The notes beneath the pieces were generated by a model that had not been told where the DNA came from, searched no databases, and saw only the letters and a program-made list of their open reading frames with translations. A stretch of 64,000 nt of DNA, taken from a phage. The position numbers were made by a program, and so were the translations under genes. The DNA lies in assembly GCA_024613925.1 (NCBI GenBank), contig GCA_024613925.1_4713.1; one strand, written 5' to 3'. Of the stretch, positions 2,264 to 59,118 are shown one piece after another (positions within the stretch are counted from its first letter, which is position 1; each line of letters opens with the position of its first letter).

Positions 2264-2295
2264 CCCTCTCCCTTCCCTTACGGGTTGGGAGAGGG
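2264..2295 (-). terminator. GC-rich hairpin CCCTCTCCC..GGGAGAGGG downstream of gene 2318..3655
   Basis: 9-bp stem plus 3-bp extension, loop TTAC; weak U tract; member of repeated hairpin family. Confidence 0.4.
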
Positions 2296-2317
2296 GATAT
2301 ATCAGTTTATTAACTGA

Positions 2318-3655
2318 TTACTGCTGTGCTTTCTTTGCTTCCAGAGCTTCCTTTTTCGCGTAGTATTTCGACTGGATGTGCCCTTTCAGCATTTTAGCAA
2401 CGCCGTCCAGAACAGCGTTACCTGCCTGAACACCGTATTTCATCAGACCGACCTGCGGGTTCACGTAGCAGGAACGTGCGTCTTTCAGTGCAGACAGTAC
2501 AGCTTGAACACGCTGTTTTTCCTGAGCGGAAACATCGCCTTTCTTAGACAGATCGGCTTCCATATCGTCACCGAATTTAACAGCGTCTTTGAAGCCCTGG
2601 GATTTCTTACCGATGGTGCCTTTCAGTGCAATCAGTTTATCAGCCAGTACATCAACGCTGTGAACCGCAGCAGTCAGTTGATTCTGAGACAGAACAGGCG
2701 CTTCAACTTCTTTCGCTTCGCCGGAACGTTCCCAGGTTACTTTACCGTCGTTGGTTTTGAAACCCCAACCAGCCGGGCCAGTAACATCTGCGATCGCCGG
2801 TGCGTTCAGTTTATCAGTGTATTCGGTGTGGGACTTAGATTTGACTAACCCAACGAATTTATCAGCACGATCGTCAGCAGCCTTCATTGCTTTCTCGAAG
2901 GTGTCAGCGATTTTAGTCGCTGCGGTAACCAGATCGTCACCACCGATATAGCCAGAAACGCCGCTACCCAGAGTAACTTTGGCATTTTCAGCAACGCCAA
3001 TACTCTTGCCGATCATTTCTTTCAGTTTAGCAGCACGTGCTTTCAGTTTGGTCGCGCCGTCGAAGATGCGATCCATGAACTTCACGAAGGTTTCCCAGGA
3101 AGTTTTCAGGAAGTTCTTGATGGTTGCCCACAGTTTCTGCCACCATTTTTGTTCTTCCAGGAAGATCATGTTGGTCGCATCGTAACGGGAAGCGGAACCA
3201 CCGAAGCTTTCGAAGGACGGCATGGTTTCCGGCATTTTGAAACCGATAGTACCACACAAACGTTTCAGATTACGCATGTGTTCCTGAGCGGTTTGTGCAG
3301 ACATACCGCCGTCTTTCAGGTAGCTTTCGGTTGCAACAACGGTTTCCGTCAGTTCATCCATGGCTTCATCCATGGCTTCTGCGGTTTCGTCGTCTTTTGC
3401 AATTTCGATAACAACAGCATCAACCTGCTCGATATCACCACGAACTTCGATAGCCAGTTCGGTTTCAGCTGCGGTATCTTCAGCGATTTCAGCACGTTCG
3501 GTCAGTTCAGCCACAACGTTTTCATCCGCTGCTGCAGCATCAGCTGCCGGTTCTGCTTCAACGGTTGCCGCTGCATCCGGATCGATCTCAGCAGCCAGTT
3601 GAACCAGCTGTGCGTTAGATGGATTTGCGACAAGACGATCAAAAATAGAAGGCAT
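2318..3655 (-). CDS. Hypothetical protein with strongly acidic Ala/Glu/Asp-rich N-terminal region (scaffold or internal virion protein candidate)
   Basis: 445-aa ORF; AAAGGAAAC ribosome-binding site before ATG; low-complexity acidic N-terminus then helical-looking sequence. Confidence 0.6.
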   Translation of the reverse strand: MPSIFDRLVANPSNAQLVQLAAEIDPDAAATVEAEPAADAAAADENVVAELTERAEIAEDTAAETELAIEVRGDIEQVDAVVIEIAKDDETAEAMDEAMDELTETVVATESYLKDGGMSAQTAQEHMRNLKRLCGTIGFKMPETMPSFESFGGSASRYDATNMIFLEEQKWWQKLWATIKNFLKTSWETFVKFMDRIFDGATKLKARAAKLKEMIGKSIGVAENAKVTLGSGVSGYIGGDDLVTAATKIADTFEKAMKAADDRADKFVGLVKSKSHTEYTDKLNAPAIADVTGPAGWGFKTNDGKVTWERSGEAKEVEAPVLSQNQLTAAVHSVDVLADKLIALKGTIGKKSQGFKDAVKFGDDMEADLSKKGDVSAQEKQRVQAVLSALKDARSCYVNPQVGLMKYGVQAGNAVLDGVAKMLKGHIQSKYYAKKEALEAKKAQQ

Positions 3656-3719
3656 AATTTGTTTCCTTTACAATAAATTACACATTAGCTAATGCGGCTT
3701 AAGTGAACCGTCAGCTCAC

Positions 3720-4250
3720 TTAAAAGCCCTTAAAACCCGGTGCCATAGGTTGCCCAAACACCGCATTCAAAGTACATATGATGTCCTGGATGCCATTGTC
3801 CCAATGGAGCCAAGTACGCACCATCTCTTCGTCTGACAACGTGATATAACTCATAAGTTTACCGCTGCTTTCCAGACGTTGGTGCGAACTTAACGACTGA
3901 CGATCCGACCAGTTATCAATCAATTGACCCGCAATCTGAACGTTCGTGTCTCGTCTACCCGTGTGAATGAACCGTAGTGTATCACGGATAAACTCCAGAC
4001 TGGTGAAGTTCAGATTTGGGTTATGGCTGTTCATTTCCACCCAATCGGTGATAGGGTACATCAAACGATAAAGGGTAGAAAGAACCTGACGTTCATATTT
4101 CCAGTCATCGAGAGGAGTACCGTCGACCAGACGCTGATACAAACTAACAACGTCGCGATCGTAGTTCTCCTGGCGTTTTACACCGTTAACCGGAAATCCA
4201 AAGAACCCGGTACCGTATAACGTTAAAGGGACGTCACGAAGTGCATTCAT
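3720..4250 (-). CDS. Hypothetical protein
   Basis: 176-aa ORF; 4-bp overlap (ATGA-type coupling) with upstream gene. Confidence 0.5.
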   Translation of the reverse strand: MNALRDVPLTLYGTGFFGFPVNGVKRQENYDRDVVSLYQRLVDGTPLDDWKYERQVLSTLYRLMYPITDWVEMNSHNPNLNFTSLEFIRDTLRFIHTGRRDTNVQIAGQLIDNWSDRQSLSSHQRLESSGKLMSYITLSDEEMVRTWLHWDNGIQDIICTLNAVFGQPMAPGFKGF

Positions 4251-7538: not shown

Positions 7539-10532
7539 ATGAGCGTAACCAACAAAGATCTTGCTGAACAGCTCAATCGCTATATGCTTTCACCTATTGA
7601 AATGCAGGCTGTTGCAAGCGATATGATTCGTTTGGCCTCTGATGGCGAGTTAACCCTGGTTGACCCCAGCTGTCCGTTTGTTTATCTGCTGGAGGTTGCA
7701 ACAGCAACGGCGGCGAACCAGAACGCACGAGATGAGTCCCGTGTTCGCGAACTGTATCCGAAGCTTGCAACCAACTGGAGCCAGCTCTATCGTTGGATGT
7801 ATGACGAGTCGTACGTCGGACGTTTCGCAATGCCGGGTAAAACGGAAATCATTTATTCGTTAGGGTATCAGGAAATCCTCGACCGGGCTGTAGAGATTCC
7901 CAACACCATCGCCTCCGATGATTTAAGCCGTTCTTACAGCCGTAAGTTAGTGATACCACGTACGACGGCGTTTACGGTAGCCGGAATGGATTTCGGGTTG
8001 CATTATCCCATCGAAATCCAAGTACAGGCGCACGATCAGATACGCGTTGTTTATAACACCGATAACATCAGCCCGTTGCAAACCTTGGAGAGTAACCAAG
8101 TTGAGTACGGGGTTGTTCGCGTAAAAGCGGGTAAAGTGTTGGTGATGCGTATCCCGCTGTTCCAGTTTAAAACGCTGGTAAAAGATGTGCCGTTTAACAG
8201 CGTTCACGGGATGAACAGCAGCATTACCTTCGAAGATCAGTTTTACCATTGTCGTGCGTACATGTCGTCGGACAACGATACCTGGACGGAGATAGCGACA
8301 ACACACAGCCAGCAGATCTACGATCCGTTAACACCAACCATCGCGTTACAAGTAGAAGGGAACAAACTGAACTGGCGTGTTCCTGAAATTTATTTGTCTC
8401 AAGGTACGATGGATAAAAGCACCATTCGACTTGAGGTGTTGACGACGAAAGGGAAAATCAGCGTCGACCCGTCTGATTACGACGTGACCGATTGGAAAGA
8501 TAACTACATCGATTTGTCGCCAAAAGCCGAACAGAAATACAGTGCGCCGCTAAGTGCGTTCAATATTAAAGGGATTTATAGTGAAGGGGCATTGTCGGGT
8601 GGACGATCTGCGTTAACGTTCGAGGAACAACGTGAACGCGTTATGGCGGGCGTGAACAAAACCAAGGTGCCGATCACAGGAACGCAGGTAGAGCTGGTGC
8701 TTCAAGATGCGGGTTATGGGATGGTGACCACCATCGATAACGTAACCAATCGTTCGTTCCTGGCAACCCGAGATTTACCGCAATTGAGCGACAGCGTGCC
8801 GCAAGCCGGTTCGTTGATGGGGTCTTTCTATACGTCAGCCGCAGCATTGGTGAAAAGTAAGTTTGTCGCTGATAACGGCGATCGTATTACGATTAAACCG
8901 GATTGCTTGTATCGTGACAGTAACGGAAGTATCGCGCTGTTGTCGGACGATGAAATTGACCGTATTAATGCAGGCAACTCCGATGCGAAGTTGAACGCGG
9001 TAAACAACACCATGTTGTTTTACAGTCCGTTTCATTACGTATTAGACGCAACAAGCGATTTCGACATCCATGCTTATTACCTGGATGCCCCTAAGATCGG
9101 CACACAAGCATTCCTCGACGCGAACGAGACAATCCCGTTAACCGCTATGGTGACCGGATACCGTCTGGATCGTATCGCTGAAGGATATCGTCTAAGCCTC
9201 ATTGTAGAAGGTAACGACGCATGGAAGGCGCTCGACGATAAAAACGTGCACATCCAGCTGGGGTTCAATCCGCGGGGTGAGGGCGATTATGCGACGATGT
9301 TGGCGTCACCGACAACCGATGAACAAGGTCGTCGTTTGTTCACCTTCGATATCACCACGAATTATGATTTTACGCGGATCCTGGCCGATGATTCCACGGC
9401 GTATGAACCGTATATCGCACTGACTTCGTTCTCGATGTATGAATCAACACCGCGGGATTATTGGGCATCACTGCAGCAGTATTTGGAAATCTTCCATGTG
9501 GTGACGGATTACGCACCGGAAGATGTCGACGGTATTTTACACAGTGCTTCCGATAATTACCTGGTTAAGAAACTTACGCTTCAAAATGGGTATTGTTTCT
9601 ACCGTGAACGTCTCACCGCAACCTTTGGTTATGATCTGGATGGCCTTTGGATGCGTTCTCGTACGGTGGCCTCGGAGATCACGTATAAACGTTACACCGA
9701 GAACATCCCGTGGGTGTATGACGAAGACATTCCAGCGACGGATGAGACCGGTTCGGTTATCATCGAGCAAGGTGATGATGGTACGTTGTCGGTTAAATAT
9801 CTGCATCGTAAAGGTGACCCGAAATTAAACAGTGATGGAAGCCAAGCCTATCGTTATCTGAAAGGCGACATCATGAAAGATAATTACGGTAATCCGATCC
9901 CTGTCGATGAACGTGAGGTTCTGCGTAACCTGGACATGTTCTTTATCGATGCGTCGTATCTGCTCGCGAACGATACGGACGTGATTGACTATCGTAACAC
10001 GATTCCTACACAGCTTATTGAGTGGATTCAGAACGATATCAGCACGTTCAGGAATTTCTGTTATGAGGAAACAGCGATTTCACTGTATCCTAAGCAATCG
10101 CTGGGGTATGTGGATGTTATTGTGGAAAACGGATTGGAAACAACGCTTCCTGCTGCCTTATCGTTCAACGTGACGCTTTACTTACCGGCTAAGCAATACG
10201 CAGACTTGGATCTACGTCAAGTCCTTCAAGCGATGGTATCGAAAGTCATCAATGAATGTTTAACATCCCGTACGGTGGCTAAAGCAGAAATGATCGCGAT
10301 GATTCGTGAAGAGGGTGGTGACGACATCCTGAACGTTGAAATCGATGATTTTGGACCAGGTAAGAACCTCAGTGTTTATACCGCGAAGAACGATGGTGTT
10401 CGTTGTGCGGTGAAGAAAGAGCTTTATGTGAAAGCGGATGGTATCTTGTCCGTACGCGAAGCGATTGATGTGAATTTTGTGAAACACGCACAAAGCAACA
10501 GTTCAGCGCTAGCGCAAGGCCTTCGTGTCTAA
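7539..10532 (+). CDS. Large hypothetical protein (997 aa)
   Basis: Long ORF, GAGGGA ribosome-binding site, immediately follows 6330..7535. Confidence 0.6.
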   Translation: MSVTNKDLAEQLNRYMLSPIEMQAVASDMIRLASDGELTLVDPSCPFVYLLEVATATAANQNARDESRVRELYPKLATNWSQLYRWMYDESYVGRFAMPGKTEIIYSLGYQEILDRAVEIPNTIASDDLSRSYSRKLVIPRTTAFTVAGMDFGLHYPIEIQVQAHDQIRVVYNTDNISPLQTLESNQVEYGVVRVKAGKVLVMRIPLFQFKTLVKDVPFNSVHGMNSSITFEDQFYHCRAYMSSDNDTWTEIATTHSQQIYDPLTPTIALQVEGNKLNWRVPEIYLSQGTMDKSTIRLEVLTTKGKISVDPSDYDVTDWKDNYIDLSPKAEQKYSAPLSAFNIKGIYSEGALSGGRSALTFEEQRERVMAGVNKTKVPITGTQVELVLQDAGYGMVTTIDNVTNRSFLATRDLPQLSDSVPQAGSLMGSFYTSAAALVKSKFVADNGDRITIKPDCLYRDSNGSIALLSDDEIDRINAGNSDAKLNAVNNTMLFYSPFHYVLDATSDFDIHAYYLDAPKIGTQAFLDANETIPLTAMVTGYRLDRIAEGYRLSLIVEGNDAWKALDDKNVHIQLGFNPRGEGDYATMLASPTTDEQGRRLFTFDITTNYDFTRILADDSTAYEPYIALTSFSMYESTPRDYWASLQQYLEIFHVVTDYAPEDVDGILHSASDNYLVKKLTLQNGYCFYRERLTATFGYDLDGLWMRSRTVASEITYKRYTENIPWVYDEDIPATDETGSVIIEQGDDGTLSVKYLHRKGDPKLNSDGSQAYRYLKGDIMKDNYGNPIPVDEREVLRNLDMFFIDASYLLANDTDVIDYRNTIPTQLIEWIQNDISTFRNFCYEETAISLYPKQSLGYVDVIVENGLETTLPAALSFNVTLYLPAKQYADLDLRQVLQAMVSKVINECLTSRTVAKAEMIAMIREEGGDDILNVEIDDFGPGKNLSVYTAKNDGVRCAVKKELYVKADGILSVREAIDVNFVKHAQSNSSALAQGLRV

Positions 10533-10553
10533 AACAAAATAGCATGAGCATAA

Positions 10554-10585
10554 CCCTCCTCCTTCCCTGATGGGAAGGAGGAGGG
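10554..10585. terminator. Bidirectional hairpin between convergent genes
   Basis: Perfect 14-bp stem CCCTCCTCCTTCCC/GGGAAGGAGGAGGG, loop TGAT, flanked by GCATAA/ATATGC. Confidence 0.5.
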
Positions 10586-10594
10586 AATATGCTG

Positions 10595-13500
10595 TTATCT
10601 TACGTTATTGCTATTCTGCTGTTCGCTGAACCAACCGTACACCTTGAGATCGGTACCGTATTTCAATGCGATATACGCATTGAGCGCAGCACAGAACAAA
10701 GACGCGAATGCCCATATCAGCGAAGGATCAACATCTTCCGTTACCACCGGGAGAGTATTATCCGGTTCCCACGATGGAGAACCGTCCATGAACGTCGTGT
10801 ACCATTCCCGCCGTTGTTCTTCGGTGGTAAAGTCGCTATGGGGTTCCAATGCTTCTTTTGCCAAACGTCGATATTCGAACATATGCGTTGCTAAAGCCGA
10901 TGAGTTACCAGATTCGCCTTCATAGTTCGGATCCACCGCATAACAGAGTTCTGTTGAATCTAACAAAGCAACCGCCTGTGTGATGCTGTCGGCAGTGCCT
11001 GCACCATAGAGCTCGATAGACTGCGAAAGCTTCTCACAGAACGCATTTAACGCGGCAGGATTGGACACCTGAAGGTCAAGGCCTAATGTCCACGGATAGT
11101 TACTGAACACACCCGTAAACCGCGGCATGACACCCAACAGATGTTGTCCGATTACGGCACGGTTATAAACAGCCCGGTTATAGACTTGAAACGCAGCCTC
11201 CAAGGCTTGGTTATAATGACGACGAAGTTCGTCACGCGAGTTGCGGAATCTGTTTGCCGCAAGACTCGTGGCTGCGACGCTACAAACATCGTAATTGGTG
11301 GACGAGAGCACAGTTTCGTTAAGATCGAACGATTCCTGTTTCAACGATCCGCTAACCGCTGCTGCTTCGCTGTTTGCTTTATCGACAACTGTACTCAAAG
11401 CGTTGATGTAACGTTTCGCTCGGACTTCCAACCATTGTGCAATGCCGAGAATATCCACCGCAGCTTTAGCAAGATCGCGTGCATTCACGATTTCGTTCTT
11501 CAACGCCCCTAAACCTTTATTCTCAGGCGAAGAGGCTTGTTGACGAATCATGCTGTTCAACATGGTAAGCAGATTATCCAACTCATGTCCACTGACCTTG
11601 TTACGCGCATCGGTAATCGGCCCTTGCAGGAATTTACGGCAACCGTCGTTGTATCGAATCAGTTTATCCACATCGATCGATTCGTTCGTAGATTCCTTGA
11701 ACTGATCCTTCAATTCTTCACGGTAGTCATGGATTTCACTTGCGAGATTATCGATAGTGATACCGTTATGTCCAAGAAGAACTTTATTGAAGCTACCTTT
11801 CTCGAATGCAAGAGCAAGACCTTCACGAATCTTAGCGAGTTTATCCTGATCGAGTTCACGACCGTTCGATAGCTCTTTCACTTCCGAGCTGATTAGTGCC
11901 GCAACGTTACCCAGATTGTCGGTAACCCCTTTGAACGCTCCCGACCAGATCGTTCCTGCTTCAGCATATTTCGCAATGGTCTGAATACCGACGGTGTGCA
12001 GCGACGCTAAACGTTTCTTCGTGCCTTCGGTAAGCAGTGCGTCTTTAGCTCGCGTAAGTTGACTGTTATTAGCTTCCGCCTGCTGAATCGCCGCTTTCGC
12101 ACTTCCATTACGCCAGCTCTTAACCAACCAATCAACCAAACGTTTTAAGATGTTGACGGTGTATTCCATCGTCCGCCGTAACGTTTCCCACGCGCTTTCT
12201 GCGGTATAGATGCCGTACCCTTCCATCTTCAACGCTTTCAAGCTTGTTTGACGTGCCAACCATTCTACCGTTGCAGAACAAACGTTTACTAATGCTTCCA
12301 GGTAGTTGTAATAGACGTCTGTTGCGGCCGTTTCGTTGAGCTTTGAATGCAGATAAAACTGATCGTAAAGTTCGTCGTCATCGCCGAAGGCATCGTAGTT
12401 CCACAGCTCAGTATCGCAGCCTGTGCCGCAGAAGACGTCTGCTGTTGTAAACTCTTTAAGCGCTTTAGCCGCATCATTCGTCAGGAATTTACCTGTTTCA
12501 ACTACATCATCGACGTTAAGCTTGGGGAGTTCATCAGTAACTGGCTCTTGCAACATTAACGTGTTGAAGAATGCGTTGTACTTGTATCCGAGCCATTTTG
12601 GATAACTGCTTTCAGGTATCGTAGACAACGGCTTGATTTTCTTGGCTTCAGCCAGCGTGTCTTTTGCAACCTGATATTGGTTTTCCCCGGCCTTGATACG
12701 ACGTAATGCTTTTTCTTCCAACTGCTGGAGTTTGGCATGCCGTGCTTGTGCGGGAGCTTCAACAAGTTTTTGTACCGACCGCACTGCAGAAATCGCTTCT
12801 TTTAATACGATCATCGGCATACGAACTTTGCCGTCGTCAAAACTAAGAGCCCGAGCGACACGCTTACTTACGACAGGTTTGTCGTGGATATTTCGTTCCA
12901 CCCACGATTTGTTTGCGTAAGTTTGGGTGAGCTGCTGCTGGATATTTTCAAGGTATTTCCAGCTTTTGGACGCTTTGCTATCCAAAAGCGGATTCGGTCC
13001 CTTCTTATCGAAAAGTTTCAGAATCGGATCAAAGAAACCTTCCTGTACGAGATCGATACACGTGTAACCATCAGCCGCTTCGATTTCCTCTTGGGTTTTA
13101 TCCCAGAGTTGTTCACTGTGTACCGCACGAGCTGTTTCTGATACGGACATAATAACTTCAGTGACAACCTCAGCGTAAGACAATACTGCCCGCACCCACT
13201 CTACCAACATACGCTGATAGATAACACGTTGACATTGACAACGTGTGATGATGGCGAGATAACTTACGCTGTCGAGTTGTTCATTCGTACGAACATCCTC
13301 AACTTGTTCAATTAGTTGTTTAACTAACTGTGCTGTCTCTGGGTAATCGTGGACGACGTCGCGAATAACTTGCGAAGCATACACTGCGGTACCAAGGGCG
13401 AGATGGAGTTTGGTTGCATCCCACTCTTTTTCTGCTGTTGCCGGATTGTTCGGTATTAGGTAACCGATATCGTCGAAATATGGCTTAATAACATCGATAT

Positions 13501-20580: not shown

Positions 20581-20648
20581 GAAATAAATCGGTTAAGTAT
20601 TACTACTCTGTTCGATGGTTATGGGATAACCAAATGGAGTAGTCATGC

Positions 20649-21755: not shown

Positions 21756-21789
21756 CCGATTTTAGGTCCCGGTGGGGATAACGCCCCCA

Positions 21790-22114
21790 CCGGATTCCCG
21801 TTAATTGCTGGAACCCCCTAAAGCCTTTCGACCACAGCGGATTCTGAAAAGAAAAACGTCAAGGTTAGAAAACAGAAAGGATGTTCGTAAGGAAACGATA
21901 AATGGGCAATCAGCAGCGAAGCTTCTAAGGGCCTGCATTAGCAATAAGACCTAAGAAGAACGTTCAACGACTATCCGGTCGCGCGGAGTAAGGGACAAGC
22001 GTCCCCAAACACGGGAGGGGTGCGAAAGCATTCCATGATATAGTCTGCTCCTAAGTGAAAGCTTAGGCGGGTGGTACACACCGGCATAAGAGTTGCGTCT
22101 TATGTGGACAATGG
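21790..22114 (+). ncRNA. Group I intron-like ribozyme core
   Basis: Q-like AATCAGCAGC (21908-21917), R-like GTTCAACGACTA (21962-21973) and S-like GATATAGTC (22037-22045) in the canonical order; P7 GACTA/TAGTC pairing; P9-like hairpins CCTAAG..CTTAGG and CATAAGA..TCTTATG. Confidence 0.5.
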
Positions 22115-22369: not shown

Positions 22370-22417
22370 TTCAAGTAAGTTGATCCTCGTTTAACAAAAA
22401 AGAAAACGCATGCGAAG

Positions 22418-22449
22418 CCCCTCCCCCTGGCGGAAGCCGGAGGGAGGGG
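22418..22449. terminator. GC-rich hairpin between convergent transcription units
   Basis: CCCCTCCC..GGGAGGGG stem followed by TTT; lies between the putative 3' exon and minus gene 22456..22941. Confidence 0.4.
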
Positions 22450-22455
22450 TGGGGT

Positions 22456-22941
22456 TTATGCGTGTTCGTTGCCAACCTTCACTTTGTAATCAGCGTCGGT
22501 TAAGAAAATAGACAGGAATCCATGTTCTTTGCAAATCTGACTAAGGATGTCAGCAATGATTTCGTTGATCATCGGTTTGTTTGCAAGGGCATAGATGTAC
22601 CCGGGTGTAAAAGAAAGTGCATGATTGATCATAGGCTCATGAGAAGCCAAGATAAGGATCACGTGATGCTTCCCATCGTCGGTAACGACCGCTTGCGTAG
22701 ACACGAAGAAATCAGTGAAGCAGCAGCGATCACAGGCTTTAGGTATATACAAATCACCCAGAGCTTCGTCGCGTGCTTTTATGTGTGTTTCAGGGGTGAT
22801 GCTGCTAAGTTGATCTTCAGCGAGATCCAAGACATCCTCAATCGTTTTAAGAATAGCGTTGCGGAAATCCTCGCGGTAGAATGGGATGATATCACGATCG
22901 TTCATGTAATCGCCGGATTCGATAGTAAAGTTGATGTTCAT
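22456..22941 (-). CDS. Small hypothetical protein (array member 1)
   Basis: 161-aa ORF with AGGAG ribosome-binding site. Confidence 0.5.
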   Translation of the reverse strand: MNINFTIESGDYMNDRDIIPFYREDFRNAILKTIEDVLDLAEDQLSSITPETHIKARDEALGDLYIPKACDRCCFTDFFVSTQAVVTDDGKHHVILILASHEPMINHALSFTPGYIYALANKPMINEIIADILSQICKEHGFLSIFLTDADYKVKVGNEHA

Positions 22942-23011: not shown

Positions 23012-23479
23012 TTAGATATCATCATCCGTGGTGCCGTAGGACATATGCTGAATTAATTTTCTCGGCTCGATGAAAATACGACATGTGATAAACACATCGG
23101 GATCGTATTGCTCCACGCAACGTCCGAAGGCTTGTTTTGCGGCTTGACGCACCGATGTTATTTCCTGATCGTTCATCGCATTATCGAATTCGATGTTGAT
23201 CGTGATTTTATCGGGAAATAAATAGATAAAGTAATCGCCACTGATACCACCATCATCAAAGTGACGTTCATTGTAACACTGGACGAGCTTACCTTCACGT
23301 TCTTTCTGATACCATCCAAGGATACTATTAAGACCTCTGTCCACGCATTCGAATGCTTGAGTAATAACATCCTCAACGACGGAGGCTGCCGTGGGACCAT
23401 TGAATAGACGATCTAAGCGCTTTTTCATCGATTTGTCGGTTTTCATGTTCATTGTTTCTTTTCCTGTTATAGTCAACAT
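23012..23479 (-). CDS. Small hypothetical protein (array member 2)
   Basis: 155-aa ORF. Confidence 0.5.
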   Translation of the reverse strand: MLTITGKETMNMKTDKSMKKRLDRLFNGPTAASVVEDVITQAFECVDRGLNSILGWYQKEREGKLVQCYNERHFDDGGISGDYFIYLFPDKITINIEFDNAMNDQEITSVRQAAKQAFGRCVEQYDPDVFITCRIFIEPRKLIQHMSYGTTDDDI

Positions 23480-23529
23480 ATAGCCCTTCCCCGGCCTTGA
23501 CGGCTAGGGAAGGGTATGTTTACGTGTAA

Positions 23530-26317: not shown

Positions 26318-26449
26318 AAATAGATGATAAGATATTTTGCTCTTATCATTAAGGTAACGCTTACGCGTCGCGTTCATGATGTCATGCATCATGAAGGTAA
26401 TGTAGTCGTGAAATAAACTGCGTTAACACGAAATAAAACAGCATAGAAC

Positions 26450-26480
26450 CCTCTCCCAACCCGTAAGGGAAGGGAGAGGG
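26450..26480 (-). terminator. GC-rich hairpin, inverted copy of the 2264..2295 element
   Basis: CCCTCTCCCAACCCGTAAGGGAAGGGAGAGGG preceded by GCATAGAA. Confidence 0.4.
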
Positions 26481-26493
26481 AATATTAAAATTG

Positions 26494-27361: not shown

Positions 27362-27575
27362 GGAGTGCTTGTCCTATTTTTTATTTTCTGCACAGGATAA
27401 ATTCAACGGCATAAAGCCCTTCCCTGCCCTTATATGGGGCGGGAAGAGTTTATGACCGCAATGAGAATCTCTCACGACAAGCTCACGACGATTATCGCAT
27501 CACCCCGCGAGTGAGGGAGATCAGGATCACCTCCTACGTCGTAACGACAGCAATCCCGTTACGTCGCCTTAGACG

Positions 27576-33600: not shown

Positions 33601-33611
33601 TGCAACGGTAA

Positions 33612-33653
33612 CATAACCCTCTCCCTTCCCTTACGGGTTGGGAGAGGGCTTAT
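33612..33653. terminator. Bidirectional hairpin between convergent genes
   Basis: CATAACCCTCTCCC...GGGAGAGGGCTTATG extended stem, same core as the 2264 and 26450 elements. Confidence 0.5.
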
Positions 33654-33665
33654 GCTGTTATGTTA

Positions 33666-38641: not shown

Positions 38642-39226
38642 TTACACAGTTGTAGGAAATTCCGGCCAATCGATATTTGGTGCTGTTGATGTGTCAACGC
38701 GATGCAGAGCCACCCGATACTTTTTCCATGCCGTCAACATGGACACCTCTTCTTCCGTTGCGATCTCCAGATCCACAGCATCCTGAAGTGGCGTAATATG
38801 ATCATTCGCCGCCTTCATCAGACTGTTTTTTGTTTCTTCCGCCTCCCGGATCCGGAACAGTTTTTCTGCTTCCGTATCCTTCACCCAGGCTGTGCCGTCC
38901 CACTTCTGAAACTCCCCTTCCGGCGATAACCAGGTAACATTTTCCGGTAACGGACCGAGTTCAGAAATAAATAACGCGTCGCCGGAAGCCACGTCATAAA
39001 CCGTTTTACCCCGATGATCTTCAACGAGATGCCACGATTCATTTTCATTGTTAAAAACTGCCACAAAACCAGCAGGAATTTCCGGTGGGGCGATATCTGT
39101 AGAATTAGCTGGCAGACCTGTATGAGGCGGAATATATGCATCACCTTCACCAATAAATTCATTAGTTCCGGCCAGCAGATTATAAATTTTTATGGTCCGT
39201 GGTTGTTCACTCATTCTGAATGCCAT
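38642..39226 (-). CDS. tfa: Tail fibre assembly protein (lambda Tfa family)
   Basis: [39 protein letters not shown]... matches the lambda/E. coli prophage Tfa chaperone as recalled from memory; directly follows the fibre gene with start/stop overlap. Confidence 0.85.
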
Positions 39227-42972: not shown

Positions 42973-43127
42973 AAGCGCACCCTCCTCCAACAATCAAATT
43001 AAATTGTAAACGCCTCGAGACCGGAGTGCGATTCGAGGTAAACGTAAACAGTCCAGACGACCGCATAAAATTCCGCGCATATTGCCCCTCTATCCCGACA
43101 AAGCGAGATAGAGGGAGGATAATACTT

Positions 43128-44882: not shown

Positions 44883-44922
44883 AAGCACTCCAAAGTTCAT
44901 GGGGCGGTAACCGCCCCGTTGG

Positions 44923-47900
44923 TTAAATTGTTGGTTTAATATCGCGTAATAGGGCAATATAATAGCCTAATCCTCGGAGGATCTCTCCACTCCAGAAACC
45001 AAAATACATTCCGTCTCTGCCGAGATTAGCGCTATCTGGTGCAGGACTCCACCCACCATTCATTACGTCATCAACGGTGTAGCGGTTGATGTAGTTCTCA
45101 ACGATTTCGTTATACGCATTAACCGCAACAGAATAGCCTTTATCGTTGGGATGTCCGTACAACATTGCTAACGACGCACCCGCCAACCATAATCCTGCCA
45201 TATGACCAGTAAAATCATTAGGGATAAAAGCAGGGGGTTTATCCATCGGAAAATCCGTAGGAGATTGATAAGCGTTTTCCTGTTGATACGTAAACAAGAA
45301 ATCGATCCAATGGCTGATGTAAGTGGTTAACTTCTCAGGGACGGCTAAACCACGATCGAGCAGTCCAGCATAAAGCCTCACCGCTGAGAAGAAAGCCCTC
45401 GGCTGATAACCAGACCATGCCGTCTGATCGCCGAAGTGGTACATCGTAAAATCATTAACTTTTGATCCGCTTGGCGCATCCCAACGATCCCACACGTACG
45501 CACTTGCCCCTGGCCCTAAAACCCCGAATTTCTGATAATACCACTGCTGCGAGTCATACCAGAAATTCACAACATTCTGAATCATGAGGTCACGTCGTTC
45601 AGCCGATACGTCCATATCCAGGAAGACCCATGGATGTTGGTAGCCGGGATAAGGCTGACCACGCCAACTGTCGAACGTCGGTGCGTTAGGGACATAGTTG
45701 TTCGAGAACGGAATAATACCCGGAGTATAAGGCAATGGATCCAGACGTTGGTTGACAATCGTACAATCGCCAACACGCAGTGTGCCCTCCGCCTCAAAGG
45801 TTGCTTTTAACGTAAACAGCATGGTATATCCGTCATCCGTGGTGTAAGTTGACGGTGGATTGTTGATGGCGTAAAGCTTAAATACCCCTTCAGCGATATC
45901 GCCGTCGTCAGGCAAGAACAGAATTTCAGTTGAACCATCGCCCCACACAGGTGCAGAAGGTTTAGGGTCAGTATCAGCGTGGCCCGGTTGATACCCTGAG
46001 AGCGTCCATCCGTTCGCCGAAAGCGTCAATGTATTTCTTGCTGTGGTGGCCGGTAGCATATACCACCATCGCCAGCCGTTTGTATCTTCTACACGAACGT
46101 TGTAGTCAATCGACGCGAAATAACTGACCTGCCTTACGATCTGTTTTGCGGTCGGATTGAATTCAAATTGCCCGCCTGCCGCAGTAAGCTGCGCTTTTAG
46201 GAACAACCCATCCCAGGAATCTTCCACCGCTTCGCTGAATTCTGTTGTGATGGCGACATCATCTTTCCAGCCGACTTTATCAGCCGATATCAACACAGAA
46301 CCTGTAACAGCATCGCCGGTTGGCGTTGAAGCTTCATCAACCGCATCAGCAGGAATCAACGAGCCTATTTTGAAATCCCATTCTTTCGGCTCGGCACTGG
46401 AAGGTAACACCAGCTTGTACGTTTTGGCTTTCGCTTCGGTTTTGTCCAAAGAAAGCGATAATGAGATCTCAACCGGAATTGCAATACCCGCTGTATCTTT
46501 ACCACCGCAGGTTACACGAAGAATTGAATCACGATTGACGCGGAACGGAATAGCCTGCTGTTCAAGGTAAATTTGTGCTGAGGATGCTTGAATCACGATC
46601 CAGCCGTCAGTATCACGTGTAATTGTGAACGGTGCTTTCGATGGATAGGTATACGTGTAAGCGATACCGTCGGTGTCGTAACGATCGGTTCCTTTTACCT
46701 GACGGAAGAACTTATCGTTGGCGTCGATACGAGTATATTCTTCAATCGTAAACAACGATGCCTTGTACGCTTTCTGATAGCGCTCCTGCTGCGTTAAACT
46801 GTATAAGGTGTAGGCTGCTTCACAAAACCACTGTTCAGCGTCTGACGCGTTTCCCATGTAGTCTCTGGTGACCGGCACCTGGATCGGTCGGTTATGCTGA
46901 CACTCGTTCGTTTTGATGAGGTATCCGCCATATTCAACAGGAACGCGGGGTGCCCACGCAACCAAATAAGAACCGCTGACGGACTTATCTTTGAGTACGA
47001 TGGTGCCCACCTCATCGTCAGTACACGCTTCAAGATCGTCCCCGCCCACACTTACGTATCGTTTTGTGCGTAACGCAACTTTCTCGATAGGGAACACCGT
47101 ACCCTTTGTATCCCAGTCAATCGTCCCATCATCATTGGTTTTGAACACATCGGCGTTCAAATTCTGCCAGCCGAGTTTACCCTCATAGACCTGAACAACA
47201 AGATCCATGTATTCCCCGAACGTTGGTGCCCCATGTGTTATTTTCCCGATACCGTTGGTGAATGTAACCGCGGTGTCATGGAAACCGCCATGTGTCGGGT
47301 AATCGTTTTTTGCAAGAGGATAATGGGCCAACACCGGCTGTTTACCATTAACAATCCAGTTAGCGATCCAGCGTGCCGGTGTATCCGGTGGTTCAAGACC
47401 CGCATAGAACGCTTTTATATACGCATCGAACGATGCCTCCGCTAATGTGAGATAGTGCGCTTTAAGCTTGGTATCATCCGTTGTATGACTGAATATACCC
47501 GCACCCAGAATTAACAACGACTGTCCTTCTGTTGTTGCGTCACCATCCGGTTGTGCTTCTTGTCGTGTTGCTGCAATGAAATGACGGTTGTTTACCATGA
47601 CCCCGCTTTCATTTAACACGTAATGATCGGTTTCTGGATCGGTAAACGTTCCTGTGTTTCGGGTTAAGAATCTTGCATGGCCATAACCAACGAAATTAAC
47701 CGGCGACGCTGTAATCATCCATTTACCGATAAGTTGAGCAACATCATTATAACGCTCGGATGCGGTGATTTGTTTCACGTACCAGTCTTTACGGTTAAAT
47801 GTCCAAAGCAGGAAGTAATAAGTTGTATCGATTTCCATCACTGGGAACGTCGGCGTTAACGGCTCCAGCATTAAGTAGTTGCTCCAGTCAATCTGTCCGC

Positions 47901-49420: not shown

Positions 49421-49476
49421 TTAAAAAAAAGAAAAATAGGAAAACGGTGTTCATCCTTTTAGGGATGAACACCGTG
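49421..49476 (-). terminator. Rho-independent terminator (minus strand)
   Basis: 13-bp stem ACGGTGTTCATCC/GGGATGAACACCGT followed on the minus strand by a long U-rich run. Confidence 0.65.
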
Positions 49477-49494
49477 TACCGTTATATCGAACGA

Positions 49495-50892: not shown

Positions 50893-51393
50893 TTAATGTT
50901 TGTTCTTTACGAACTCTATCGCCTCCAGAATACCAGCGTTTAATCGTTGACCGCGTTCCTCCATTGTCCCGCCATCGCGATGTTTGAAATTAACCGAGTG
51001 GATATCCCAAGCCCAGTAATGTGTCTCCGGCGTGTCGTCTTCTTTGGTGGGATCGCTCAATCTGTTAACCCCAATTCGCCAAATATAATCAGCGGGTTGT
51101 CGTCGTAAGCATTCACCTATAGCGTCTATATAAGACAACCCTTCGGTCGTCACAGCGACGACAACGTGTGGGTGTTTTTTGACTTCTTTGGTTGTTTGTT
51201 TGCCGTCCAATGTCACGCTGATCTTTTGAATTTCGTGTCCTTCGCACGACCATATCGGTGCAATACCTGGCGCATCTAACAACGCCTGGCATGCGGGTAA
51301 TATACCAGGTTCAATGACTCCTTCCTTGATAGCCATCCGTGCGCGTTCTTTGAATATCGCTAATTGTTCTTCGGTGACAACAAAAGAAAACAT
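50893..51393 (-). CDS. Hypothetical protein
   Basis: Start moved to ATG at 51393 (MFSFVV) with AAGGAG 6 nt upstream. Confidence 0.5.
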   Translation of the reverse strand: MFSFVVTEEQLAIFKERARMAIKEGVIEPGILPACQALLDAPGIAPIWSCEGHEIQKISVTLDGKQTTKEVKKHPHVVVAVTTEGLSYIDAIGECLRRQPADYIWRIGVNRLSDPTKEDDTPETHYWAWDIHSVNFKHRDGGTMEERGQRLNAGILEAIEFVKNKH

Positions 51394-51723: not shown

Positions 51724-51777
51724 GATGATTTCCTTCTTTATTAGGATAATTACGTTTTAGTCAGTTTAACAGCATAA

Positions 51778-51803
51778 ACCCTTCCTGCGTAAGGCAGGAA
51801 GGG
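51778..51803 (-). terminator. GC-rich hairpin with AGCATAAA flank
   Basis: CCCTTCCTGC gtaa GCAGGAAGGG, perfect 10-bp stem. Confidence 0.4.
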
Positions 51804-51817
51804 CATACGGATTTGTT

Positions 51818-52315
51818 TTACGTGTGTCGTCGTTTACCAAAGAAAATGTGGCTGTCTACCACGGTGATATTGGTAGCATGTTTTCTGAAATGTTTAGGGC
51901 GAAGATGTTTCGTGTTAAAGAATACGGCTCCTCGTGTTGGGTCGGCTTTATGGTAAGCCGCAATGTCAGTATAACGTAATGTTGCGACCTCTCGTGCTAT
52001 TGCTCTTGCTCGCTCAAAAGCAGCATGATCGCGTATGATAATACGCCTTTGTTTTGTCCAGGGGAATTGACCTCTTTGCAGTACGACGTCTTTGACGTTC
52101 GTAGGGAATCGGTAGTCCATAGATCGATTATGTATTAAAAACGCCACGGAGTATTGCCCTTTTACAGATTCGCCTCTGGCTTCCATATACACGGCGCATG
52201 CGACGATCTCTTTCCGGCAATCGATTCTAGGTCCTGCGTTCACTGATGCTTGACTGAACGGTGTGATAAGCAACATAACAAGCCCTAAAATCAACGTGTG
52301 TAAAATACCTTGCAT
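51818..52315 (-). CDS. Putative endolysin, SleB/CwlJ-type cell-wall hydrolase with N-terminal signal or signal-anchor sequence
   Basis: CAVYMEARGESVKGQYSVAFLIHNRSMDYRFPTNVKDVVLQRGQFPW matches the YxEARGE...NR...FP...QF signature of Hydrolase_2; hydrophobic N-terminus MQGILHTLILGLVMLLITPFSQA. Confidence 0.6.
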   Translation of the reverse strand: MQGILHTLILGLVMLLITPFSQASVNAGPRIDCRKEIVACAVYMEARGESVKGQYSVAFLIHNRSMDYRFPTNVKDVVLQRGQFPWTKQRRIIIRDHAAFERARAIAREVATLRYTDIAAYHKADPTRGAVFFNTKHLRPKHFRKHATNITVVDSHIFFGKRRHT

Positions 52316-54671: not shown

Positions 54672-54729
54672 GATAAAGATCCTCGTTGAAATAAAATCGG
54701 TATAAAGGCCCCCATTTAGGGGGACCTGA

Positions 54730-55047: not shown

Positions 55048-55058
55048 CTTGACATCCT

Positions 55059-55088
55059 TTTATATTGGATTGATTGCTAATAATTCAA
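55059..55088 (-). promoter_or_regulatory. Sigma70-like promoter candidate (TTGAAT, 18-nt spacer, TATAAA) with conserved leader
   Basis: Leader GCAATCAATCCAATATAAAAGGATGTC repeated at 26280-26306; preceded by hairpin GGTGAAGC..GCTTCACC. Confidence 0.3.
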
Positions 55089-55155
55089 GGTGAAGCTGAT
55101 TACTGCATTGCTTCACCTAAGTAATATAGCCGTGAAAATTAATGTATTAACCCAT

Positions 55156-57584: not shown

Positions 57585-57629
57585 TTAAAGCCCTCTTTAT
57601 CTTTTTTCCATTTCTCTTTACATAACCAC

Positions 57630-58301
57630 TTAAGACGTTGCCATCTTATCTTCCAGAGACTTCTTCGGTAAACCATGGATAACTCCTTCCGGGGTTAAGA
57701 ACACGCAGTCTGGATTCTGCGTTCGTGAACGGTCGTCTGGACTGTTCAACGAAAACAACAACGCAGAAATACCTTTTGTCCGGTTTAACGTCGCTACGAT
57801 CACGTCAAGCTGCCGTAGCGCATCCGATACGGTTCGATGCGGAACGATTCGTGACTGTTTGAAGCTGGCTAACCGCCAAGTCTCGAACAAACAACGCAGT
57901 TTAAACACGTCGGACGGAATAGCTGTAGATCCCTGTTCGATAACCTCAACCCGATCCGCTTCAGGATAACCTACAGCAACCGCACTAAAGTGTCTTACCC
58001 CATTATGAAAATCATCGATAGACGCTTCAGCGTATTTACATACCGTACCAGAAACGACCATCACTTTTGCTAAACCGCGATAATTGATCGTTAACGGAAT
58101 ACGAAATACGCGTAAAGCATGTTCCGGATTTAATGAGACGTCATTCACTTTCGCAGATACCAGCGCACCTCGTTCATATCGAGCTTTGAACGGCAGTCCA
58201 TTATAAACGGGATTGATCACAACGCCCCCTGGGGAGGCGTTAGCGTTAAGATGAATGTTAAGCCAATCGGATACTTCCTGTCTGCTGGTTACGATTAACA
58301 T
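57630..58301 (-). CDS. Hypothetical protein
   Basis: Start moved to ATG at 58301 (MLIVTSRQ) with GGAGGA ribosome-binding site. Confidence 0.5.
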   Translation of the reverse strand: MLIVTSRQEVSDWLNIHLNANASPGGVVINPVYNGLPFKARYERGALVSAKVNDVSLNPEHALRVFRIPLTINYRGLAKVMVVSGTVCKYAEASIDDFHNGVRHFSAVAVGYPEADRVEVIEQGSTAIPSDVFKLRCLFETWRLASFKQSRIVPHRTVSDALRQLDVIVATLNRTKGISALLFSLNSPDDRSRTQNPDCVFLTPEGVIHGLPKKSLEDKMATS

Positions 58302-58326
58302 AAAACGGTCCTCCATTTCTTTTCCT

Positions 58327-58977
58327 TCATTCATGGCGCATATCTTCCAAATCATCCTTTTGTTTTGTAAATTCTGATTGCTTGCGATAAACCGTCCATG
58401 AGTCGTATATACCGTAAAAGTTCAAATGACGTGCATTTAAGTTCACAGTAAATTCTTCCACAGAGGCAAAATCAGAACGAAGCATCGAATGGAAGGTGTC
58501 GTCTCCGGTACAGCCTCCGTATCCTTCACCCTGATAGACCAAAAGCTGGTGAGGTTGGATACGTGCGGTAACCAATGCCGCTTGTGGTTTGTCGTAAGGC
58601 GGCCACGACAGTAAAATAACGTCGTACTGTGAAAGATCGATGTTTGTATAGTCGGCTTGCTGGATATCATCGATAAACGGATGGGGATGTACTGTAACAT
58701 CGTACGCGGTAATATCCTCCACGCCGAGTTTGCGTAACACGTATGTCAGGTAACCTGTCCCACAACCCAAGTCAGCGACACGTCGTCCGTAACAGATGTT
58801 CGCCAACTGGAGCGCGGTATCCATGGTTAACAACGACCATCCGACATGCTGAGTATATTCTTCACGCACAATCCATTGTTGATGGTGCGTCATCGGTTCT
58901 AAGATAGCAGCAAGCTGCTGGTACGGCAACGGCATTTTGGTTTCGCCTTGCGTGAGTAATGCGATAACATCGTTCAT
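58327..58977 (-). CDS. SAM-dependent methyltransferase with PPY-type motif (amino-methyltransferase candidate)
   Basis: Motif I VADLGCGTGYLT; LLSWPPY about 50 aa downstream; start moved to ATG at 58977 (MNDVIALL) with AAGGAA ribosome-binding site. Confidence 0.6.
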   Translation of the reverse strand: MNDVIALLTQGETKMPLPYQQLAAILEPMTHHQQWIVREEYTQHVGWSLLTMDTALQLANICYGRRVADLGCGTGYLTYVLRKLGVEDITAYDVTVHPHPFIDDIQQADYTNIDLSQYDVILLSWPPYDKPQAALVTARIQPHQLLVYQGEGYGGCTGDDTFHSMLRSDFASVEEFTVNLNARHLNFYGIYDSWTVYRKQSEFTKQKDDLEDMRHE

Positions 58978-59118
58978 TCTGTTTCCTTTTATCGGCATAA
59001 GCCCTCCCGGCATGGGAGGGTACAATTATTCATTTATGTGGGTAAAGGTGTGGATCGGCGGCCGTTGAGGCGATAACGCAATAGAACGGCCGTTCATTAA
59101 TAACTACGGTTTTGATGT

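What the first reader, a model, noticed from the sequence alone, without database searches (positions are those of the whole stretch)
2264..59020. Family of GC-rich intergenic hairpins sharing a conserved GCATA flank
At least eight intergenic sites carry closely related hairpins: 2264-2295 (CCCTCTCCCTTCCC ttac GGGTTGGGAGAGGG), its exact inverted copy at 26450-26480, the same core at 33617-33648, CCCTCCTCCTTCCC/GGGAAGGAGGAGGG at 10554-10585, and variants at 27430-27452, 38056-38090, 51778-51803 and 58995-59017. Most are preceded by (A)GCATA(A/G)A, and several have the complementary TTATGC after the stem. Few have a strong U tract, so they may be more than simple terminators, for example RNA processing sites or recognition sites for a phage factor. 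The same core in both orientations with a fixed flank suggests a repeated element rather than convergence.
Basis: seen in the sequence. Interest (0 to 1): 0.6.

Follow-up and report, generated by a model that had tools for sequence, protein, structure and literature searches.

The report
Conserved phiKZ-type terminator hairpins
The repeated GC-rich hairpins are real, and they match the conserved transcription terminators already mapped in the giant phages phiKZ and 201phi2-1, here found in an E. coli Goslar-like jumbo phage, so the finding is sound but mostly ordinary.

Summary
The window is a Goslar-like E. coli jumbo phage (about 95% identical to vB_EcoM_Goslar). All eight reported hairpins exist, and I found three more. 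The "GCATA" flank on the + strand is TATGC on the - strand, which is the transcribed strand for most genes here. On the transcribed strand the unit reads: stop codon, then a CCCUCY...RGAGGG hairpin (-15 to -37 kcal/mol), then (U)UUAUGCYGU. This matches the terminator motif published for phiKZ (5'-BCCYCCCCHWWDGGGRRGGBYTTATKYYGT-3', 61 mapped transcript 3' ends). A related 201phi2-1 motif was tested in vivo. A covariance model built from Goslar-lineage copies finds 9 window sites (E<=1.6e-4), about 33 sites in Goslar and at least 25 strand hits in 100 kb of phiKZ. In Goslar the hits lie at 15 of 19 convergent gene junctions and at 0 of 20 divergent ones. At tandem junctions the flank is on the transcribed strand (7/7 in the window, 14/15 in Goslar). 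The "same core in both orientations" arises because the hairpin centre flips between close relatives while the flanks stay fixed. Still unexplained is why TATG, the core of the phage RNA polymerase late promoter, and the following CYGT are conserved. Verdict: a new member of a known kind, of modest interest.

The parts
2249..2300 (-). Terminator element. Hairpin 2264-2295 (9 bp + 2x2 internal loop + 3 bp + tetraloop), then UUCUAUGCCG on the - strand. It lies 22 nt after the stop of ORF 2318-3655.
   Evidence: CM 67.5 bits E=6.7e-17; fold -25.2 kcal/mol
10541..10599 (.). Bidirectional element between convergent ORFs 7539-10532 (+) and 10595-14191 (-). Perfect 14-bp hairpin 10554-10585. AAUAUGCUGU follows on the + strand and UUAUGCUC on the - strand.
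   Evidence: CM 65.5 (+) and 53.7 (-) bits; -36.8 kcal/mol
22413..22468 (+). Outlying member at a convergent junction, after the DNA polymerase segment that follows the group I intron and facing ORF 22456-22941 (-). Hairpin 22418-22449. TTTATGC lies 5 nt further downstream than usual.
   Evidence: weak CM hit, 11.8 bits E=0.78; -31.5 kcal/mol
23469..23519 (-). Terminator element. Hairpin 23484-23514, then CUAUAUGUUG on the - strand. It lies 15 nt after the stop of ORF 23530-23925.
   Evidence: CM 25.4 bits E=9e-5; -26.9 kcal/mol
26434..26485 (-). Terminator element. Hairpin 26449-26480, the reverse complement of the 2264 core, then UUCUAUGCUGUUUU on the - strand. It lies 13 nt after the stop of ORF 26494-26949.
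   Evidence: CM 68 bits E=5e-17
27402..27453 (-). Terminator element. Hairpin 27417-27448 with one bulge, then CUUUAUGCCGUUG on the - strand. It closes a structured 127-nt spacer that follows ORF 27576-28202.
   Evidence: CM 26.6 bits E=4e-5
33604..33662 (.). Bidirectional element between convergent ORFs 33022-33600 (+) and 33666-34040 (-). Hairpin 33617-33648. CUUAUGCUGUUAUG follows on the + strand and UUAUGUUACCG on the - strand. The orthologous Goslar site is annotated as a putative terminator.
   Evidence: CM 66.7 (+) and 55.5 (-) bits
38042..38092 (-). Terminator element. Hairpin 38057-38086, then UGCUAUGGCGUC on the - strand. It lies 8 nt after the stop of ORF 38095-38601.
   Evidence: CM 41.8 bits E=1.7e-9
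43071..43122 (-). Divergent member. Hairpin 43085-43116 (UCCCUCUAUC...GAUAGAGGGG), then CAAUAUGCGCGG on the - strand. It lies 11 nt after the stop of ORF 43128-44957.
   Evidence: -22.6 kcal/mol; not detected by the CM
51765..51806 (-). Terminator element. Hairpin 51778-51803, then UUUAUGCUGUUAAAC on the - strand. It lies 14 nt after the stop of the endolysin-like ORF 51818-52315.
   Evidence: CM 25.5 bits E=8.6e-5
58988..59025 (-). Terminator element of the short phiKZ-like form. Hairpin 59002-59020 (7 bp, CCCUCCC/GGGAGGG), then CUUAUGCCGAU on the - strand.
   Evidence: CM 24.6 bits E=1.6e-4; BLAST of the phiKZ-type 36-mer hits the Goslar orthologue

Best explanation
These are hairpin-dependent transcription terminators of the conserved class found in phiKZ-like nucleus-forming jumbo phages. 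The nascent RNA forms a very stable hairpin with a pyrimidine-rich 5' arm (CCCUCY...) and a purine-rich 3' arm (...RGAGGG), usually 8-25 nt past the stop codon. A short U-rich stretch, (U)UUAU, follows directly and continues as G-C-Y-G-U. The polymerase stops and releases the transcript there. At convergent gene pairs the whole unit, flanks included, is palindromic and so works in both directions. Shown here: the structure, the covariation, the placement, the strand of the flank, and the match to the phiKZ motif in sequence and structure. Taken from the literature: transcript 3' ends map to this motif in phiKZ, and 201phi2-1 terminators of a motif its authors say strongly resembles it stop transcription in vivo. 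Inferred: that the same happens in this phage, and which polymerase is affected (the phage non-virion and virion RNA polymerases, possibly the host enzyme too).
For: The window is about 95% identical to phage Goslar. Hairpins are stable. In 16 aligned copies, 100% of cells pair and 5 of 12 pairs show compensatory double changes, with 0 of 500 shuffles as good. At 9 of the 11 window sites the hairpin starts 8-22 nt (about 45 nt at 22418) after the upstream stop codon (127 and 98 nt at 27417 and 59002), while the distance to the next start codon ranges from 0 to about 170 nt. All 3 convergent junctions in the window carry an element and neither divergent gap does. In Goslar, CM hits lie at 15 of 19 convergent and 0 of 20 divergent junctions, Fisher p=1.5e-7. 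At tandem junctions the transcribed strand scores higher in 7/7 window sites and 14/15 Goslar sites. The flank consensus T-TATG-C-Y-G-T (n=37) equals the published phiKZ flank YTTATKYYGT. The published 3' half-motif matches 6 times against 0.17 expected. The Goslar-lineage CM finds at least 25 phiKZ strand hits at E<0.01 in 100 kb, for example GCCCUCUCC..GGAGAGGGCUUAUGCUGUUAUC. Eight strong 201phi2-1 terminators, chosen to cover that phage's motifs (motif A strongly resembles the phiKZ motif), terminated in a P. chlororaphis reporter. Goslar's own record annotates some of these sites as putative terminators.
Against: No transcript 3'-end data exist for this phage or for Goslar. The U tract is short, and no family member in 20-40 kb passes a canonical T-run scan. 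Classical intrinsic termination does not explain the conserved G-C-Y-G-T. Mapping 3' ends in phiKZ cannot by itself separate termination from exonuclease trimming back to a hairpin. SPN3US, another phage of the same family, lacks the flank in its first 50 kb, so the motif is not universal.
Confidence: 0.85

Rival explanations
1. Combined terminator and restart promoter. The TATG after the hairpin is the core of the non-virion RNA polymerase late promoter (G = +1), so each element ends one transcript and starts the next just downstream.
For: The phiKZ late promoter is 5'-TATG-3' with the G as start site, and each of the four positions is needed in vitro. The beta-like subunit GP123 binds TATG on the non-template strand. 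TATG follows 19 of 22 phiKZ motif instances and nearly all Goslar-lineage ones. At tandem junctions it always points at the next gene, 0-170 nt upstream of its start codon.
Against: The same flank occurs on both strands at convergent junctions, where it would drive antisense transcription into the opposing gene. No divergent junction has one, 0 of 20. The elements are anchored to stop codons, not to start codons. The strong phiKZ promoter P119L has no upstream hairpin. The published late-promoter logo shows no conservation beyond TATG, whereas this flank continues as CYGT. Outside these elements TATG is not enriched upstream of Goslar genes, 92 seen against about 108 expected.
Confidence: 0.2
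2. RNA processing or stabilising sites. An endonuclease (RNase E or III) cuts at the hairpin or in the AU-rich flank, or the hairpin simply blocks 3' exonucleases. Either would define mRNA ends after transcription.
For: Stable 3' hairpins protect mRNAs, as E. coli REP elements do (background knowledge). Mapped 3' ends in phiKZ cannot by themselves rule out trimming.
Against: 201phi2-1 terminators, including ones combining motifs, lowered downstream reporter expression in uninfected cells, which indicates termination. Placement at every gapped convergent junction fits polymerase stopping. No data suggest cleavage.
Confidence: 0.1
3. A selfish or neutral palindromic repeat (REP- or MITE-like) that spreads by copying or gene conversion, with no transcription role of its own.
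For: At least 12 Goslar copies and 5 window copies share a nearly identical bipartite 30-32-nt core, including a conserved 2x2 mismatch. Three window copies are identical over 32 of 32 nt. Four of ten window-versus-Goslar synteny breaks (five break ends) lie within about 25 nt of a terminator-type hairpin, three of them family members.
Against: The copies sit at orthologous positions in both phages. They show strict placement after stop codons and strict flank orientation. No target-site duplications were seen. Elements with unrelated stems (43085, 51778, 59002) carry the same flank, and so do phiKZ elements, which points to selection on function.
Confidence: 0.05
4. A sequestered ribosome-binding site. 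The GGAGG-like 3' arm plus the AUG of UAUG starts translation of small ORFs or of the next gene.
For: The 3' arm resembles a Shine-Dalgarno sequence 4-8 nt before the AUG. At 23479 and 58998 the AUG is in frame with the downstream gene, and Goslar gp111 is annotated to start at that AUG.
Against: Nine of 13 flank AUGs open ORFs of only 4-28 codons, and two more are antisense ORFs at a convergent site. In phiKZ the G is sometimes T. The Shine-Dalgarno-like arm is locked in a hairpin of -15 to -37 kcal/mol.
Confidence: 0.03

Closest known systems
Conserved phiKZ intrinsic terminator motif, 5'-BCCYCCCCHWWDGGGRRGGBYTTATKYYGT-3' (Putzeys et al. 2024, PMC10914365; 61 mapped terminators)
   Same: The arms have the same composition (CCYCCC / GGGRGG). 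The flank is the same, (Y)TTATG-Y-Y-G-T. The placement is the same: after genes, and bidirectional at convergent pairs. The Goslar-lineage covariance model finds the phiKZ sites, and the phiKZ 3' half-motif finds the window sites.
   Different: Most copies here have a longer, two-part stem (9 bp, a 2x2 A.A or U.U internal loop, 3 bp, a tetraloop) instead of 7-8 bp. Position +1 after TATG is mostly C here and mostly T or C in phiKZ. The host is E. coli, and the phage shares only weak protein similarity with phiKZ. No transcript mapping exists for this lineage.
201phi2-1 terminator motifs A and A/B (PMC11512511)
   Same: A conserved stem-loop terminator family. The A/B combination gives elongated stems, as here. 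Terminators from this set were validated in vivo.
   Different: I could not see the 201phi2-1 sequences (figures and tables are not held), so the comparison rests on the authors' statement that motif A strongly resembles the phiKZ motif.
Canonical bacterial intrinsic (Rho-independent) terminators
   Same: A GC-rich hairpin directly followed by U-rich RNA. Upstream A-rich and downstream U-rich symmetry at bidirectional sites.
   Different: Only 3-4 U in the first 8 nt, and a fixed UAUG-C-Y-G-U in place of a U run. The stem sequence is conserved between sites. True U-tract terminators also exist in the window for comparison (25810-25827 and 49439-49480, - strand).
phiKZ non-virion RNA polymerase late promoter, 5'-TATG-3' (PMC4666361, PMC12809450)
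   Same: The identical four bases, on the non-template strand, pointing in the direction of transcription.
   Different: Late promoters have no upstream hairpin (P119L) and no conserved bases after TATG. The elements here are tied to gene 3' ends.
REP/BIME repetitive extragenic palindromes of enterobacteria
   Same: Multi-copy, near-identical extragenic palindromes at gene ends, with central mismatches and both orientations.
   Different: No sequence relation. REP elements have no fixed TATG flank and are not the main terminators of their genomes.

Membership tests
phiKZ-type conserved jumbo-phage terminator motif | Stem-loop with a CCYCCC-type 5' arm and a GGGRGG-type 3' arm | tested here: met
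   All 11 window sites have these arms. Stable folds. 100% pairing with 5 covarying pairs in 16 copies.
phiKZ-type conserved jumbo-phage terminator motif | A 5'-TTAT-3' region and the KYYGT continuation directly after the stem on the transcribed strand | tested here: met
   Flank logo T-TATG-C-Y-G-T, n=37. GGGRRGGBYTTATKYYGT matches 6 times against 0.17 expected. Outliers: the flank at 22418 is displaced by 5 nt, and 38057 has TATGG.
phiKZ-type conserved jumbo-phage terminator motif | Mutual recognition with genuine phiKZ instances by a sequence-plus-structure model | tested here: met
   CM R1, built only from Goslar-lineage copies, gives at least 25 strand hits at E<0.01 in 100 kb of phiKZ. 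These overlap the hits of the published motif. Their density, 22 per 100 kb, extrapolates to about 61 per genome, as published.
phiKZ-type conserved jumbo-phage terminator motif | Placed at gene 3' ends, and bidirectional between convergent genes | tested here: met
   Window: 3 of 3 convergent junctions, 0 of 2 divergent gaps. Goslar: 15 of 19 convergent against 0 of 20 divergent.
phiKZ-type conserved jumbo-phage terminator motif | Transcript 3' ends map to the element during infection | not testable with these tools
   I found no transcriptome for Goslar or this phage. Supplementary tables of the phiKZ study are not held.
Canonical intrinsic terminator | A run of U (at least 5 T in 8 nt) right after the hairpin | tested here: not met
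   No family member in 20-40 kb is called by the T-run scan. Only 25810-25827 is.
nvRNAP late promoter (TATG) | TATG with a primary transcript starting at the G | not testable with these tools
   The sequence is present. Placement argues against a general promoter role: both strands at convergent sites and none at divergent junctions.
Any described RNA family (Rfam 15) | A match at the family's gathering score | tested here: not met
   Only a group I intron and IS009 were found in the window. Nothing matched at the hairpins.

The most novel reading that the evidence does not exclude
The invariant TATG after the hairpin could be read by the phage non-virion RNA polymerase itself. The same beta-lobe pocket that binds non-template TATG at late promoters would catch this sequence during elongation and hold the enzyme with its RNA 3' end at the U before the G. 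That promoter-like pause would take the place of a U tract, making a polymerase-specific terminator. It might also allow immediate re-initiation at the same G. This would explain why TATG-C-Y-G-T is shared by phages as distant as phiKZ and Goslar but was not found in the 50 kb of SPN3US that I searched.
Probability: 0.15. Interest if true: 0.6.

Novelty: new member of a known kind. Interest (0 to 1): 0.3.

Why it matters
It gives a transcription-unit map for an unannotated E. coli jumbo phage: 11 terminators in 64 kb and about 33 in Goslar. It extends the phiKZ terminator signal to an enterobacterial phage that shares only weak protein similarity with phiKZ. That implies the signal is read by machinery the two phages share, most likely their multisubunit RNA polymerases. 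The elements could serve as compact terminators for engineering Goslar-type phages. The overlap of the flank with the late-promoter core is a concrete hypothesis that can be tested, and none of the papers I read mentions it.

Tried and rejected
1. Start-codon or small-ORF reading of the flank ATG. Most such ORFs are 4-28 codons long, so I rejected it as a general explanation.
2. Flank as part of an extended stem. Upstream CAUAA pairs with UUAUG only where both strands carry the flank. At tandem sites such as 2264 and 26449 the upstream flank is not complementary, so it is a directional element and not part of the helix.
3. Free-standing TATGCYG boxes. There are 22 in the window, against about 15 expected from my own rough base-composition estimate. 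Only 6 are intergenic, and 5 of those adjoin family hairpins.
4. Bare TATG as an enriched upstream promoter word in Goslar. It is not enriched.
5. Rfam. No family matches the hairpins.
6. MAFFT alignment of all 13 variable-length copies was poor. I therefore built the model from the 16 copies with uniform geometry. That model misses the most divergent member, 43085.
7. Supplementary TSS and TTS tables for phiKZ are not held, and Ceyssens 2014 is not held. I could not check whether phiKZ start sites coincide with terminator TATGs.
8. ChmC eCLIP paper. No binding motif and no link to these hairpins.
9. SPN3US, first 50 kb. No significant model hit. A similar CCCUCUCC hairpin there has an ordinary U-rich tail.
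Full report
IDENTITY OF THE WINDOW. The first 20 kb matches Escherichia phage vB_EcoM_Goslar at 94.8% identity. Goslar is a 237-kb phiKZ-like, nucleus-forming jumbo phage. Whole-window BLAST gives eleven collinear blocks with Goslar positions 61,452-124,247. Most genes lie on the - strand.

THE OBSERVATION. All eight sites exist. Some coordinates are a few bases off, and the corrected stems are listed under the parts. Sites 2264 and 33617 share an identical 32-nt core, and 26449 is its exact reverse complement. A hairpin scan and a look at every intergenic gap added three sites: 22418-22449, 23484-23514 and 43085-43116. Each element folds into a stable hairpin, -14.6 to -36.8 kcal/mol. The usual Goslar-lineage form has two parts: a 9-bp outer stem, a 2x2 A.A or U.U internal loop, a 3-bp inner stem and a tetraloop.

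ANATOMY ON THE TRANSCRIBED STRAND. Read along the direction of the neighbouring genes, every site has the same layout. First comes the stop codon. Then comes the hairpin, with a CCCUCY 5' arm and an RGAGGG 3' arm. Next is a 0-3-nt spacer, and last TATG followed by C-Y-G-T. The 3 convergent gene pairs in the window (10554, 22418, 33617) carry the element. At 10554 and 33617 the flank is present on both strands, so the whole unit is palindromic. Anchoring 37 Goslar instances on TATG gives T at -1 (23/37), C at +4 (24/37), Y at +5 (33/37), G at +6 (23/37) and T at +7 (23/37).

IS IT MORE THAN CHANCE? In 16 aligned copies all 192 pair cells are standard pairs. Five of 12 pairs show changes on both sides, and no shuffle out of 500 did as well. 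I built a covariance model (R1) from those copies.
- In the window it finds 9 sites at E<=1.6e-4, with non-family noise starting at E about 0.6.
- In the whole Goslar genome it gives 54 strand hits, about 33 sites.
- Across Goslar, TATG lies within 10 nt downstream of intergenic GC-rich hairpins in 40 of 96 strand instances, against 9 of 328 for hairpins inside genes (p=3.8e-21).

WHAT IT IS. Putzeys et al. 2024 mapped phiKZ transcript 3' ends with ONT-cappable-seq. They reported that 61 intrinsic terminators share 5'-BCCYCCCCHWWDGGGRRGGBYTTATKYYGT-3', a stem-loop followed by TTAT. The 201phi2-1 study found a motif (n=59) that its authors say strongly resembles it, saw elongated stems when motifs combine, and showed that eight selected terminators work in a P. 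chlororaphis reporter. The window elements match in three ways.
- The arms and the flank consensus are the same.
- The published 3' half-motif matches the window 6 times against 0.17 expected, 5 of them at family sites.
- The Goslar-lineage model detects at least 25 strand hits at E<0.01 in 100 kb of phiKZ, with alignments such as GCCCUCUCC..GGAGAGGGCUUAUGCUGUUAUC.
My own scan of that phiKZ stretch with the published motif gave 22 instances per 100 kb, which extrapolates to the published 61 per genome. A 36-nt phiKZ-type consensus hits 58 phage records by BLAST. Of these, 55 are Pseudomonas phages, nearly all phiKZ-like jumbo phages with 13-16 places each, two are Goslar records and one is a chance Streptococcus hit. 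The longer Goslar-type 51-mer occurs 15 times in Goslar and only as single partial matches elsewhere.

TERMINATOR VERSUS PROMOTER OR OTHER ROLES. Placement discriminates between these.
- At 9 of the 11 window sites the hairpin starts 8-22 nt (about 45 nt at 22418) after the upstream stop codon; the distances are 127 and 98 nt at 27417 and 59002. The distance to the next start codon ranges from 0 to about 170 nt.
- Using Goslar's annotation, model hits lie at 15 of 19 convergent junctions, or 17 of 19 with the hairpin descriptor. The two without have overlapping genes and no gap. Hits lie at 0 of 20 divergent junctions (p=1.5e-7 and 3.4e-9).
- At tandem junctions the transcribed strand scores higher in 7/7 window sites and 14/15 Goslar sites.
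- No family member in 20-40 kb passes a classical T-run scan, whereas 25810-25827 does.
- Flank ATGs mostly open ORFs of 4-28 codons.
- The upstream flank is not complementary to the downstream one at tandem sites such as 2264 and 26449, so the flank is not part of the helix.

THE OPEN POINT. TATG is exactly the phiKZ late-promoter core, with G as +1. A pocket of the beta-like subunit GP123 binds it on the non-template strand. TATG follows 19 of 22 phiKZ motif instances. None of the papers I read connects the terminator flank with the promoter core. A general restart-promoter role is unlikely for these reasons:
- The flank occurs on both strands at convergent sites.
- It is absent from divergent junctions.
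- P119L has no upstream hairpin.
- Outside the elements TATG is not enriched upstream of genes.
A polymerase-specific pause through that pocket remains possible but untested. By my own count, G at -10/-11 with Y at -1 and G at +1 also fits the general pause consensus of multisubunit polymerases. That point is inference from background knowledge. The first 50 kb of SPN3US lacks the flank, although a similar CCCUCUCC hairpin there has an ordinary U-rich tail. The flank is therefore lineage-restricted.

"BOTH ORIENTATIONS WITH A FIXED FLANK." At orthologous sites the hairpin centre is inverted between this phage and Goslar while the flanks are unchanged.
- 2264: TTCCCTTACGGGTT against AACCCGTGAGGGAA, which is one inversion plus one substitution rather than seven substitutions.
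- 33617: the same kind of flip.
- 59002: the loop GGCAT against ATGCC, an exact reverse complement.
- 49439: the loop of this U-tract terminator is also flipped.
- 10554: the A.A mismatches are "corrected" to pairs.
These are the marks of template switching within quasi-palindromes, which is background knowledge. Centre orientation therefore looks neutral and labile. The three identical window cores also suggest gene conversion among copies.

VERDICT. The elements belong to a known, experimentally mapped terminator class and are newly recognised in the Goslar lineage. The conserved TATGCYGT flank is the only truly unexplained feature.

Noticed in passing
window 2264-2295, 10554-10585, 33617-33648, 49439-49480, 59002-59020 compared with Goslar 63715-63746, 71990-72021, 93445-93476, about 108131-108162, 117670-117688: The centre of the hairpin (loop plus mismatch positions) is inverted between this phage and Goslar at orthologous sites while the flanks are identical. 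At 10554 the A.A mismatches are converted to pairs. This looks like template switching within quasi-palindromes or flip-flop inversion.
   Followed up: partly
window 23514/24099, 26357/26960, 43139/44886, 59035: Four of ten synteny breaks against Goslar (five break ends) fall within about 25 nt of a terminator-type hairpin, three of them family members. The window has extra ORFs 23530-23925, 26494-26949 and 43128-44957 (609 aa, bounded by hairpins 43085 and 44899). Goslar has an extra 861 nt after the 59002 hairpin. Gene cassettes seem to come and go together with their terminators.
   Followed up: partly
window 21742-22067 (+): A group I intron (Rfam RF00028, 73 bits) starts at the end of an HNH/NUMOD-like ORF (20649-21755) that follows DNA polymerase ORF 19081-20580. 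A further coding segment in frame 0 ends near 22370. This region differs from Goslar (synteny gap 20580-22114).
   Followed up: partly
window 38685-38883 (-): Rfam IS009 (RF02111, 163 bits) matches inside ORF 38642-39226 in the tail-fibre-assembly region. The adjacent tail-fibre segment 38683-41174 has no counterpart at that identity in Goslar, as if a host-range cassette had been swapped.
   Followed up: no
window 27449-27575 (-): The 127-nt spacer between ORF 27576-28202 and the 27417 terminator is strongly structured. The 172-nt stretch 27404-27575 folds at -70.2 kcal/mol, z=-4.2. The surrounding 332 nt (27267-27598) is 98.8% identical to Goslar, above the local average. It could be a small RNA or a structured 3' UTR that ends at a family terminator.
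   Followed up: partly
window 26279-26320 and 55048-55090 (- strand leaders): Nearly the same 33-nt leader, GCAATCAATCCAATATAAAAGGATGTCRAGATG, precedes the ORFs that start at 26278 and 55047. It is a shared 5' UTR or promoter region of two unrelated-looking small genes.
   Followed up: no
Goslar upstream regions; window 51297-51304 (-) and 55121-55128 (-): The words TATATTA and ATATTAC are 8-9-fold enriched upstream of Goslar genes. As I recall it (not checked against a paper here), they resemble the phiKZ early-promoter core TATATTAC. The window has two exact copies, one in the gap upstream of the ORF starting at 55047. Two copies is no more than chance predicts for the window alone.
   Followed up: partly
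window 54705-54727 (-): A GC-rich hairpin (AGGUCCCCC..GGGGGCCU) is followed by UUAUACCG. It looks like a degenerate relative of the family flank with A in place of the G of TATG.
   Followed up: no
Goslar record (L003 1-38; L005 26233-26291): A family copy sits at each end of the linear Goslar record (positions 1-38 and 237232-237290). This suggests the assembly was opened inside one of these elements, or that there is a terminal repeat.
   Followed up: no
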